UHGV virus genome: UHGV-0363730
Direction: 5' to 3' (one strand)
Source: a virus
Length of the DNA: 22,197 nt
Below the pieces are notes generated by a model. That model saw only the letters and a program-made list of their open reading frames with translations. It ran no database searches and had not been told where the DNA came from. A program made the position numbers and the translations under genes. Position 1 is the stretch's first letter, and each line of letters opens with the position of its first letter. Below, piece after piece: positions 21,287-22,197 of this stretch.

Positions 21287-21864
21287 ACACGGCAGCGGAA
21301 GCCATCCGTGCCCTGTCGTTACAGGTGCCGGGCTTTCGCCGTCAGATGAACGAAGGCTGGTACCAGATACGTATTGCCGGTGATGACACGGCACCGGAGG
21401 CGGTGTATGCCCGTCTTCACGAACAGCTGGGTGAGGGAACGGTCATCCACATTGTGCCGCGACTGGCCGGGGCCGGAAAGGGTGGACTGCAGATTGTGCT
21501 GGGGGCGGCAGCCATCGTGGGCTCTTTCTTCACGGCCGGAGGCTCGATGGCGTTATGGGGTACAGCCCTGAGTGCCGGTGGTTTTTCTGCCACCACGATG
21601 CTGTTTTCACTGGGTGCCAGCATGATACTGGGCGGAGTGGCCCAGATGCTGGCCCCGAAGGCAAAAACACCGGATTACCGCGCAACGGATAACGGCAGAC
21701 AGAACACGTACTTTTCCTCGCTGGATAACATGATTGCCCAGGGGAACCCGATGCCGGTGCCTTACGGGGAAATGCTGGTTGGCTCCCGCCGTATATCCCA
21801 GGACATCAGTACCCGTGATGAAGGCGGGGGCGGAAAGGTCGTGGTTATCGGGCGGCAGGGGTAA
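21184..21864 (+). CDS. I: Tail tip assembly protein gpI, 226 aa
   Basis: Lambda I-like (…ARICLHGDLQRFGRR…GAAAIVGSFFTAG…QNTYFSSLDNMIAQGN…); last recognisable lambda-collinear gene in the window. Confidence 0.85.
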   Translation: MATTNAFCLASPPLARICLHGDLQRFGRRLSLYVNTAAEAIRALSLQVPGFRRQMNEGWYQIRIAGDDTAPEAVYARLHEQLGEGTVIHIVPRLAGAGKGGLQIVLGAAAIVGSFFTAGGSMALWGTALSAGGFSATTMLFSLGASMILGGVAQMLAPKAKTPDYRATDNGRQNTYFSSLDNMIAQGNPMPVPYGEMLVGSRRISQDISTRDEGGGGKVVVIGRQG

Positions 21865-21865
21865 A

Positions 21866-21909
21866 AAGAATAAAAAAATCCCGCAGTGATCGCGGACAGG
21901 AACTGCGGG
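21866..21909 (-). terminator. Minus-strand intrinsic terminator just downstream of the I stop
   Basis: Stem CCCGCAGT (21880-21887) / ACTGCGGG (21902-21909); on the minus strand the hairpin is followed by AUUUUUUU (plus A-run 21872-21878). No T-run on the plus side. Confidence 0.5.
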
Positions 21910-21974
21910 AGAGTTACGAAGATTAAGTGTAAGGAATTATTCTTATATCACGACAAAAAAATTAACGCAGAGAA

Positions 21975-22002
21975 ATTATACGCGCCACAGTCAGTTTGTG
22001 AA
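21975..22002 (-). promoter_or_regulatory. Candidate sigma70 promoter on the minus strand (-35 TTCACA, 16-bp spacer, -10 TATAAT)
   Basis: On the minus strand, TTCACA (plus 21997-22002) and consensus TATAAT (plus 21975-21980), with an AT-rich tract upstream; would fire leftward toward the terminator at 21866-21909. Confidence 0.4.
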
Positions 22003-22054
22003 AATGTGAAGATATTCAGAATTTTTATGCCATTACCGGTTTTAACCAACAGGA

Positions 22055-22197
22055 TTATCGGTGGGCATGAAAGAAAACCGTTGCGCGGTAATCCGGTGTT
22101 TTTGCCTTCGGGGCCAGCATCTGGGCCACTCCGCCCAGTATCATGCTGGCACCCAGTGAAAACAGCATCGTGGTGGCAGAAAAACCACCGGCACTCA
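22055..22197 (-). pseudogene. Inverted, 3'-truncated copy of an I-like gene (partial; continues beyond window)
   Basis: Plus 22078-22197 is the exact reverse complement of 21569-21688 inside gene I (120/120 by manual comparison); minus-strand reading gives …MLAPKAKTPDYRAT then VFFHAHR-stop, diverging from I. Confidence 0.6.

What the first reader, a model, noticed from the sequence alone, without database searches (positions are those of the whole stretch)
21569..22197. Tail module ends at gene I: 120-bp exact inverted repeat of an internal I segment, no J gene
Plus-strand 22078-22197 is the perfect reverse complement of 21569-21688 (inside I). The inverted copy encodes an I-like C-terminal fragment on the minus strand that diverges after …YRAT and stops 8 codons later. 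J, which follows I in lambda, is absent from the remaining window. This marks a rearrangement breakpoint: inversion or recombination between paralogous lambdoid prophages, a truncated prophage remnant, or a palindromic assembly artefact.
Basis: seen in the sequence. Interest (0 to 1): 0.65.

Follow-up and report, generated by a model that had tools for sequence, protein, structure and literature searches.

The report
Fold-back artefact at a contig end
The 120-base inverted copy of gene I at the very end of the window is most likely a chimeric "fold-back" stuck onto the end of an assembled contig, because the same prophage in finished E. coli genomes runs straight on into the tail gene J.

Summary
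Window 22078-22197 is the exact reverse complement of 21569-21688, which lies inside tail gene I, with 389 nt between the arms. The biological reading is not supported.

- **Where true sequence stops:** Window 12602-22079 is 100% identical to a finished E. coli chromosome (NZ_AP045169.1), and identity stops at 22079/22080.
- **What follows in that genome:** A strong hairpin comes next, then gene J 128 nt further on, then lom and the tail fibre gene. J would start at window-equivalent 22208, past the end of the window, so "no J" only reflects where the sequence stops.
- **The junction:** It shares only 2 nt (CC) and sits inside the 5' arm of that hairpin.
- **Not seen elsewhere:** The junction is spanned in none of 5,426 complete E. 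coli genomes and in no record of the phage, plasmid, viral-contig, metagenome or species-genome collections. The normal continuation occurs in at least 108 viral contigs, and J follows in 105 of the 105 long enough to show it.
- **End of the window:** The inverted arm ends exactly at the last base, so 120 nt is a truncation length, not a biological boundary.

Best explanation, about 85%: chimeric fold-back read(s) extended a contig end. A real inverted duplication cannot be excluded without reads (about 8%).

In passing: the I-J spacer carries a homologue of the Hfq-bound sRNAs EcOnc22/23/24.

The parts
21184..21864 (+). Tail assembly gene I, complete (226 aa from ATG 21184; RefSeq annotates the identical gene from GTG 21283, 193 aa).
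   Evidence: Pfam PF06805 Lambda_tail_I: 59 bits over profile 3-83 for the 226-aa form, against 37.4 bits over profile 26-83 for the 193-aa form. RefSeq annotation 'tail assembly protein' in NZ_AP045169.1.
21569..21688 (+). Left arm: an ordinary internal stretch of gene I and the template of the inverted copy. Its left edge only mirrors the end of the window.
   Evidence: It lies inside the stretch that is 100% identical to the finished genome.
21865..22079 (+). Genuine I-J intergenic spacer: the first 215 of 343 nt.
   Evidence: 100% identical to NZ_AP045169.1, with no mismatch up to 22079. Conserved in IMG/VR contigs.
21872..22002 (-). Small-RNA gene inside the spacer, on the strand opposite the tail genes. 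Promoter-like TTCACA-16-TATAAT at 22002..21975, predicted RNA about 21968..21872, terminator hairpin plus U7 at about 21896..21872. A homologue of EcOnc22/23/24. It is not part of the artefact but lies between the arms.
   Evidence: promoter and terminator scan on L001, offset +15099; conservation; fold; Tree et al. 2014 Table S2 coordinates fall in the I-J spacers of Sakai Sp15, Sp14 and Sp11.
22062..22079 (+). Truncated 5' arm of a strong spacer hairpin. The full form in relatives is GAAAGAAAACCCCGGTATC-TGCT-GATACCGGGGTTTCTCTTT. The true sequence is abandoned inside this arm.
   Evidence: sequence; DNA fold -17.7 kcal/mol, z = -7.35, 0 of 200 shuffles as stable.
22078..22079 (.). Junction with 2-nt microhomology (CC), shared by the true spacer and by the inverted copy of I.
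   Evidence: the first mismatch to the finished genome is at 22080, and there is no similarity beyond the 2 nt between the spacer end and the complement of 21689 onward.
22080..22197 (-). Fold-back segment: the reverse complement of I 21569-21686, running to the last base of the window. Judged artefactual.
   Evidence: The junction is spanned in no record of any collection searched.

Best explanation
The window's right end is a contig end carrying a chimeric fold-back.

**What is true sequence.** The sequence is real up to 22079: the lambda-like tail genes ...L, K, I, then the first 215 nt of a 343-nt I-J spacer.

**What happened at the junction.** One or more sequenced molecules switched strand at that point, inside the 5' arm of a strong hairpin. 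They continued as the reverse complement of DNA 391 nt upstream (I, from 21688 downward), with a 2-nt overlap (CC).

**How it got into the contig.** The assembler had no usable true continuation there. The J-proximal region is repeated among co-resident lambdoid prophages and contigs often break nearby. It therefore appended the chimeric sequence and stopped about 120 nt later, on re-entering sequence already used in the same contig. That length is about one k-mer, or the rest of one read.

**What the real genome most likely has.** I is most likely followed by the hairpin, J, lom and the tail fibre gene.

**Shown:** the repeat, the exact point where identity to a finished genome ends, the 2-nt junction, the hairpin, the absence of the junction elsewhere, and the universal I-hairpin-J order in relatives.

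**Inferred:** that 22197 is a contig end, that chimeric reads exist, and how they arose (template switching or strand pairing during amplification or library preparation).
For: 1. Window 12602-22079 is 100% identical (9,478 nt, 0 mismatches) to E. coli JNEC-KY173, NZ_AP045169.1. The first mismatch is at 22080.
2. That genome continues with a hairpin and then gpJ (3,693 nt), an Ail/Lom gene and a tail fibre gene.
3. The best matches to the whole window in complete genomes all end at query position 22079 (same end in the 1,098-nt search).
4. A 121-nt query centred on the junction is covered at 80% or more in 0 of 5,426 complete E. coli genomes, 0 of 50,697 phage records and 0 of 72,556 plasmid records.
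5. The exact 34-nt junction is absent from metagenome, species-genome and viral contig collections.
6. The normal continuation occurs exactly in at least 108 viral contigs. In 105 of the 105 with enough downstream sequence, a J start (MGKGG...) lies 127-128 nt after the breakpoint-equivalent base.
7. The junction shares only 2 nt and lies in the 5' arm of a hairpin of -17.7 kcal/mol, z = -7.35.
8. The arm ends at the last base of the window. The left end of the window falls on the first base after an upstream gene's stop codon in relatives, while the right end cuts through an open reading frame. This pattern fits a sequence trimmed at a gene boundary on the left that runs out at a contig end on the right.
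9. Literature on chimeric molecules:
   - More than 85% of MDA chimeras are inverted sequences with an intervening deletion, and over 70% of junctions show 2-21 nt of complementarity (PMC1855051).
   - Fragmentation enzymes create library molecules that join nearby DNA from opposite strands (PMC7531576).
   - Sonication and enzymatic libraries yield chimeric reads tied to inverted repeats and palindromes (PMC10908179).
10. Literature on assembly: de Bruijn graph assemblers break contigs at branch points and leave end sequences of maxK or maxK-1 shared with the adjoining node (COBRA preprint).
11. Of the 108 related viral-contig stretches fetched, 15 run out within 500 nt of this position.
Against: - No reads, coverage or assembly graph are available, so the chimeric molecules are inferred and not seen.
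- That the window end is a contig end is also inferred.
- A contig with the same shape would result from a real inverted duplication, because an assembler would also stop on re-entering a repeat.
- Assemblers usually clip low-coverage chimeric branches when a well-covered true branch exists. The artefact reading therefore also needs the true continuation to have been missing or ambiguous at this point.
- The 120-nt arm fits no common odd k exactly (119, 121 and 127 are near but none is established).
- None of the other 122 fetched sequences carries a similar terminal fold-back, so this is not a recurrent feature of these collections.
Confidence: 0.85

Rival explanations
1. A real, strain-specific inverted duplication. 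Replication stalled at the spacer hairpin, the nascent strand switched template with 2 nt of microhomology and copied I (and possibly much more) backwards. That would leave a prophage whose tail module is interrupted before J.
For: The contig shape (unique sequence, then about one k-mer of its own reverse complement, then stop) is also what an assembler would produce for a real inverted repeat. The breakpoint lies in a strong hairpin, a plausible stalling site. No reads are available to exclude it.
Against: The junction is unique among 5,426 complete E. coli genomes and all the contig collections searched. Every relative has I-hairpin-J. The sequence is 100% identical to a J-bearing prophage right up to the junction. 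The inverted orientation, short distance and 2-nt overlap are the signature of in-vitro chimeras (PMC1855051).
Confidence: 0.08
2. A chromosomal inversion or exchange by recombination between two co-resident lambdoid prophages in opposite orientation. The right arm would then belong to the I gene of a second prophage.
For: E. coli genomes carry several copies of this region (median 2 places per genome, up to 24). The 63-nt I segment of the right arm is 100% identical in many unrelated strains, so a second identical copy is plausible.
Against: Homologous exchange needs shared sequence across the junction. Here the spacer end and the complement of I downstream of 21688 share only 2 nt. No genome shows the resulting junction.
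Confidence: 0.03
3. A truncated prophage remnant in which J and the distal tail genes were deleted, with the inverted I fragment as a scar.
For: Defective lambdoid prophages are common (general knowledge). The window contains nothing downstream of I.
Against: The window ends 11 nt before J would start, so absence of J is uninformative. All head and tail genes upstream are intact and identical to a prophage that has J. A deletion does not create an inverted duplicate.
Confidence: 0.02
4. A programmed DNA structure: either an invertible segment flanked by inverted repeats (Gin/Cin/Pin-type switch), or read-through of a covalently closed hairpin telomere (N15-type linear prophage).
For: The layout arm-spacer-arm superficially resembles an invertible element, and the spacer holds a promoter.
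Against: Relatives have the spacer but no right arm, so the repeat is not a conserved part of the locus. A telomere read-through would give a palindrome with no spacer, not 389 nt. The prophage is lambda-like with a cos-type terminase module and sits integrated in finished chromosomes.
Confidence: 0.01

Closest known systems
Inverted ('fold-back') chimeric molecules from amplification or library preparation: MDA chimeras (Lasken & Stockwell 2007, PMC1855051) and fragmentase dual-strand artefacts (Gregory et al. 2020, PMC7531576)
   Same: Nearby DNA from the opposite strand is joined in inverted orientation. A few hundred bases are skipped (389 nt between the arms). The overlap at the junction is very short (2 nt, within the reported 2-21 nt range). 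The junction is associated with a secondary-structure-forming sequence.
   Different: The library method of the source is unknown and no reads were seen. Here the chimera is fixed in a contig consensus rather than observed as a minority read.
k-mer-sized shared ends of de Bruijn graph contigs (described for metaSPAdes, MEGAHIT and IDBA_UD in the COBRA preprint, 10.1101/2023.05.30.542503)
   Same: The contig stops shortly after entering sequence that is already present elsewhere in the graph. The shared end has a length in the usual maxK range (about 120 nt).
   Different: The shared end matches the contig's own interior in reverse complement, not the end of another contig. The assembler and k are unknown, and 120 is not itself a usual odd k.
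Lambda tail-tip module K-I-J
   Same: Gene order M, L, K, I with the expected Pfam families, and J next in relatives.
   Different: In this prophage lineage I and J are separated by a 343-nt spacer carrying an sRNA gene and a hairpin. From my memory of the lambda map, not checked here, the two genes abut in lambda.
EcOnc22/EcOnc23/EcOnc24, Hfq-bound prophage sRNAs of E. coli O157:H7 Sakai (Tree et al. 2014, PMC4104026)
   Same: Same place (I-J spacer) and same strand relative to the tail genes. Homologous sequence with a conserved promoter and terminator. Predicted size about 97 nt against about 85 nt on the Northern blot.
   Different: The body of the RNA differs between the variant in the window and the Sakai variant (mean column identity 73% over the whole 397-column spacer alignment, flanks included). 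The exact register of the published peak is uncertain because the Sakai genome version changed. The function is unknown (PMC7873438).

Membership tests
Fold-back (inverted) chimeric sequencing/assembly artefact | [quoted passage not shown] | tested here: met
   22078-22197 is the reverse complement of 21569-21688, 389 nt away.
Fold-back (inverted) chimeric sequencing/assembly artefact | Junction with little or no homology (a few nt of microhomology) | tested here: met
   2 nt (CC), with no further similarity. The reported range is 2-21 nt (PMC1855051).
Fold-back (inverted) chimeric sequencing/assembly artefact | Junction not reproduced in independent assemblies of the same or closely related genomes | tested here: met
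   0 of 5,426 complete E. coli genomes and 0 phage or plasmid records span it. No exact match in three contig collections. The normal continuation is in at least 108 contigs.
Fold-back (inverted) chimeric sequencing/assembly artefact | Low or aberrant read support at the junction compared with the flanks | not testable with these tools
   No reads, coverage or assembly graph are available for the source.
Fold-back (inverted) chimeric sequencing/assembly artefact | Located at a contig end | tested here: inconclusive
   The arm ends at the last base of the window and cuts an ORF, while the left end falls on a gene boundary. The source contig was not found.
Inversion by homologous recombination between prophages | Crossover lies within sequence shared by both partners | tested here: not met
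   Only 2 nt are shared across the junction.
Site-specific invertible segment (Gin/Cin/Pin/Min type) | Both inverted repeats are conserved parts of the locus in relatives | tested here: not met
   Relatives carry the spacer followed by the hairpin and J, with no right arm.
Site-specific invertible segment (Gin/Cin/Pin/Min type) | Adjacent serine-invertase gene | not tested
   None is annotated next to I and J in the finished genome. The window's own downstream sequence does not exist.
Hairpin-telomere read-through (N15-type) | Perfect palindrome with no spacer at the turn | tested here: not met
   389 nt of unique sequence lie between the arms.
Lambda tail assembly protein I (PF06805) | Pfam score above the gathering threshold | tested here: met
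   59 bits against a cut-off of 23.8 for 21184-21864.
EcOnc22/23/24 sRNA group | Encoded in the I-J spacer of a lambdoid prophage, on the strand opposite the tail genes, with sequence homology | tested here: met
   The published peaks fall in the I-J spacers of Sp15, Sp14 and Sp11. The spacers align and share the promoter and terminator.
EcOnc22/23/24 sRNA group | Expressed and Hfq-bound | not testable with these tools
   Shown only for Sakai in PMC4104026 Table S2.

The most novel reading that the evidence does not exclude
The fold-back is real. Replication stalled at the I-J spacer hairpin, switched template and produced an inverted duplication that cut off J. That would leave a tail-tip-less defective prophage, caught in a draft assembly, and would mark the hairpin as a fragile site in lambdoid tail modules.
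Probability: 0.08. Interest if true: 0.3.

Novelty: not a real feature. Interest (0 to 1): 0.05.

Why it matters
It matters mainly as a caution. An exact inverted copy that ends at the last base of a sequence should be read as an end-of-contig artefact until reads say otherwise. 'Gene X is missing' cannot be concluded when the sequence stops before the gene would begin. If the structure were real, it would be a single strain's illegitimate rearrangement inactivating one prophage, which is of local interest only.

Tried and rejected
- **Finding the source contig.**
  - Exact look-up of the truncated minus-strand ORF product found nothing.
  - Look-up of the 657-aa SASA-family protein found 476 blocks, but in phages with a different head module.
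  - A 44-nt pattern from the mosaic joint at about 4250 turned out to be common (1 species-genome contig, 65 metagenome and 117 viral hits). None is near-identical to the window; the best long match is 96.8%.
- **Rfam on the I-J spacer.** Only sub-threshold chance hits.
- **AgvB/AsxR anti-sRNAs as the identity of the spacer RNA.** Rejected, because those lie at the PR' moron site and not between I and J.
- **Terminal fold-backs in the other 122 fetched sequences.** None found, so no base rate could be derived.
- **Pinning the assembler from the arm length.** 120 nt is near several usual k values (119, 121, 127) but matches none unambiguously, so it is left as 'about one k-mer or the remainder of one read'.
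- **Hairpin-telomere and invertible-segment readings.** Considered and rejected on anatomy (389-nt spacer; right arm absent in relatives).

Full report
**1. Observation.**
The repeat finder and a direct string comparison confirm that 22078-22197 is the exact reverse complement of 21569-21688. The arms are 120 nt long, 100% complementary and 389 nt apart. It is the only repeat of any size in the window's self-comparison. Chance cannot produce it; my own arithmetic gives an expectation of roughly 1e-64.

The left arm lies inside tail gene I. On the minus strand the right arm encodes SAGGFSATT...TPDYRAT, which is an internal piece of I, not a C-terminal one. It is followed by seven spacer-derived codons (VFFHAHR) and a stop. 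The right arm ends at the last base of the window. Its length, and the position of the left arm's outer edge, are therefore set by where the sequence stops.

**2. What the true sequence is.**
The window is a lambda-like late region. Pfam identifies M (PF05939), L (PF05100), K (JAB plus NlpC/P60) and I (PF06805) in the last 2.7 kb.

Window 12602-22079 is 100% identical, with no mismatch in 9,478 nt, to a prophage in the finished chromosome of E. coli JNEC-KY173 (NZ_AP045169.1). Window 4352-12612 is 99.5% identical to the same prophage. Identity ends abruptly, with the first mismatch at 22080.

In the finished genome the sequence continues ...GAAAGAAAACC|CCGGTATCTGCTGATACCGGGGTTTCTCTTT.... J starts at locus position 7109, which is 128 nt after the breakpoint-equivalent base. 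J is followed by an Ail/Lom gene and a tail fibre gene.

With the offset of 15,099 between locus and window, J would begin at window position 22208, which is 11 nt past the end. 'No J in the remaining window' therefore carries no information. This lineage has a 343-nt I-J spacer, and the window ends inside it.

**3. Anatomy of the junction.**
The last two true bases (CC, 22078-22079) are also the first two bases of the inverted copy, so the junction has 2 nt of microhomology and nothing more. The spacer end and the complement of the sequence downstream of 21688 are unrelated.

The break lies inside the 5' arm of a long hairpin, GAAAGAAAACCCCGGTATC / GATACCGGGGTTTCTCTTT with loop TGCT. As single-stranded DNA it folds at -17.7 kcal/mol, with z = -7.35 and none of 200 shuffles as stable.

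**4. Is the junction seen anywhere else?**
No.

- The best matches to the whole window in 5,426 complete E. coli genomes all stop at 22079. So do those to the last 1.1 kb.
- A 121-nt query centred on the junction is covered at 80% or more in no complete genome, no phage record and no plasmid record. Each half matches separately.
- The exact 34-nt junction is absent from the metagenome, species-genome and viral contig collections.
- The normal junction (spacer into hairpin) occurs exactly in at least 108 IMG/VR contigs.
- In all 105 of those with at least 260 nt downstream, a J start (MGKGG...) lies 127-128 nt after the breakpoint-equivalent base.

**5. Is 22197 a contig end?**
This could not be shown directly, because the source contig was not found. 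Two things point that way.

- The left end of the window coincides with the first base after the stop codon of an upstream hsdS gene in eight related loci. This looks like trimming at a gene boundary.
- The right end cuts through the open frame of the inverted I fragment. That is what happens when a sequence simply runs out.

Related contigs also tend to break in this neighbourhood. Of the 108 viral-contig stretches fetched, 15 run out within 500 nt of the breakpoint-equivalent position. The region occurs several times per genome, with a median of 2 places and up to 24. Both facts fit a repeat-induced branch point in assembly graphs.

**6. Most likely mechanism.**
The structure is an inverted copy of DNA a few hundred bases away, joined through 2 nt, next to a structure-forming sequence. 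That is the standard signature of in-vitro chimeras.

- In multiple displacement amplification, more than 85% of chimeras are inverted sequences with an intervening deletion, and over 70% of junctions show 2-21 nt of complementarity (PMC1855051).
- Enzymatic fragmentation creates library molecules that join nearby DNA from opposite strands (PMC7531576).
- Both sonication and enzymatic libraries give chimeric reads tied to inverted repeats and palindromes (PMC10908179).
- De Bruijn graph assemblers stop contigs at branch points and leave a shared end of maxK or maxK-1 (COBRA preprint).

An arm of about 120 nt is in that range, or equals the remainder of a single read.

I therefore read the end of the window as true sequence to 22079, followed by a chimeric fold-back that the assembler appended because the true continuation was missing or ambiguous. 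The contig then stopped on re-entering its own sequence. The existence of the chimeric reads and the way they arose are inferred, not shown.

**7. Rivals.**

- **Real inverted duplication (template switch at the hairpin).** It would give the same contig shape and cannot be excluded without reads. It would be unique among thousands of genomes, in a prophage otherwise identical to a J-bearing one. I give it about 8%.
- **Recombination between co-resident prophages.** This fails on the missing homology at the junction.
- **Deletion remnant.** A deletion does not explain an inverted duplicate, and the absence of J is uninformative.
- **Invertible segment.** This fails because relatives lack the right arm.
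- **Hairpin-telomere read-through.** This fails because a 389-nt spacer separates the arms.

**8. What else is in the flagged interval.**
The I-J spacer is not empty. On the strand opposite the tail genes it has the following features:

- **Promoter:** a near-consensus sequence, TTCACA-16-TATAAT (11 of 12), at window 22002..21975.
- **Terminator:** a hairpin with a U7 tail at about 21896..21872, adjoining the I stop codon (with the +15,099 offset).
- **Predicted RNA:** about 97 nt, folding with that terminator stem.

Twenty distinct spacer variants from the IMG/VR contigs conserve the promoter, the 5' CUGCGUUA, a UCUUC motif and the terminator. The body of the RNA comes in two main versions. 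Rfam has no family for it.

Table S2 of Tree et al. 2014 (PMC4104026) lists three homologous Hfq-crosslinked sRNAs: EcOnc22, EcOnc23 and EcOnc24. They are about 85 nt on a Northern blot and destabilised without Hfq. In E. coli O157:H7 Sakai their coordinates fall in the I-J spacers of prophages Sp15, Sp14 and Sp11, on the strand opposite the tail genes. The Sp15 spacer aligns with the one here.

The published coordinates refer to an older genome version. Comparing the stated position of AsxR relative to stx2B with the current annotation indicates a shift of about +140 nt at 1.27 Mb. A shift of +122 to +142 nt would place the EcOnc22 peak on the predicted RNA body. The shift at 2.9 Mb itself was not measured, so that register is assumed. 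A 2021 review lists its target as unknown (PMC7873438). This RNA is known but uncharacterised. It has nothing to do with the inverted repeat except that it lies between the arms.

**9. Verdict.**
The feature is most likely not real (about 85%). The prophage most likely has an ordinary K-I-spacer-J-lom-tail fibre arrangement. Interest is low. The only route to a different conclusion is read-level evidence.

Noticed in passing
window 21872-22002 (minus strand): A conserved small-RNA gene lies in the I-J spacer: promoter-like TTCACA-16-TATAAT and a terminator with U7. It is homologous to the Hfq-bound sRNAs EcOnc22/23/24 of O157:H7 Sakai (about 85 nt, target unknown). Rfam has no family for it.
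   Followed up: yes
window 22062-22079, continued in L001 6963-7011: A strong 18-pair hairpin sits in the I-J spacer of this prophage lineage (-17.7 kcal/mol as DNA, z = -7.35). It has T/A-rich flanks on both sides, so it looks like a bidirectional terminator between the sRNA promoter region and J. Its role in late transcription was not examined.
   Followed up: partly
window 187-403 (+): Rfam match to the sRNA family STnc100 (RF02076; 150.6 bits against a gathering score of 47), upstream of the SASA-family esterase and lysis genes. This is the region where lambdoid prophages carry PR'-proximal sRNAs.
   Followed up: no
window 21184-21286: The start of gene I is probably ATG 21184 (226 aa, overlapping K by 103 nt), not the GTG at 21283 used in the RefSeq annotation of the identical gene. 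The longer form covers Pfam Lambda_tail_I positions 3-83 (59 bits), the shorter only 26-83 (37 bits).
   Followed up: partly
window 1 and 4221-4352: The window is a mosaic. Positions 1-4221 are 99.86% identical to phages whose head genes are P22-portal type (L111-L118), while 4352-22079 is a lambda-like head-tail module. The joint lies in the lysis region. Window position 1 is the first base after an hsdS stop codon in those relatives, so the left end looks trimmed at a gene boundary.
   Followed up: partly
window 12602-12612; L110 (NZ_AP045169.1 3043548-3045799): The otherwise identical prophage of strain JNEC-KY173 carries an ISEc10 (IS21-family) insertion of about 2.4 kb between the head decoration and major capsid genes. 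The window lacks it. The two alignment blocks overlap by 11 nt at the insertion point.
   Followed up: no
L002-L109 (IMG/VR contigs with the I-J spacer): 15 of the 108 fetched stretches of public viral contigs run out within 500 nt of the position equivalent to window 22079. This suggests the I-J spacer and J 5' region is a frequent assembly break point, because it is repeated among co-resident prophages. None shows a terminal fold-back.
   Followed up: partly
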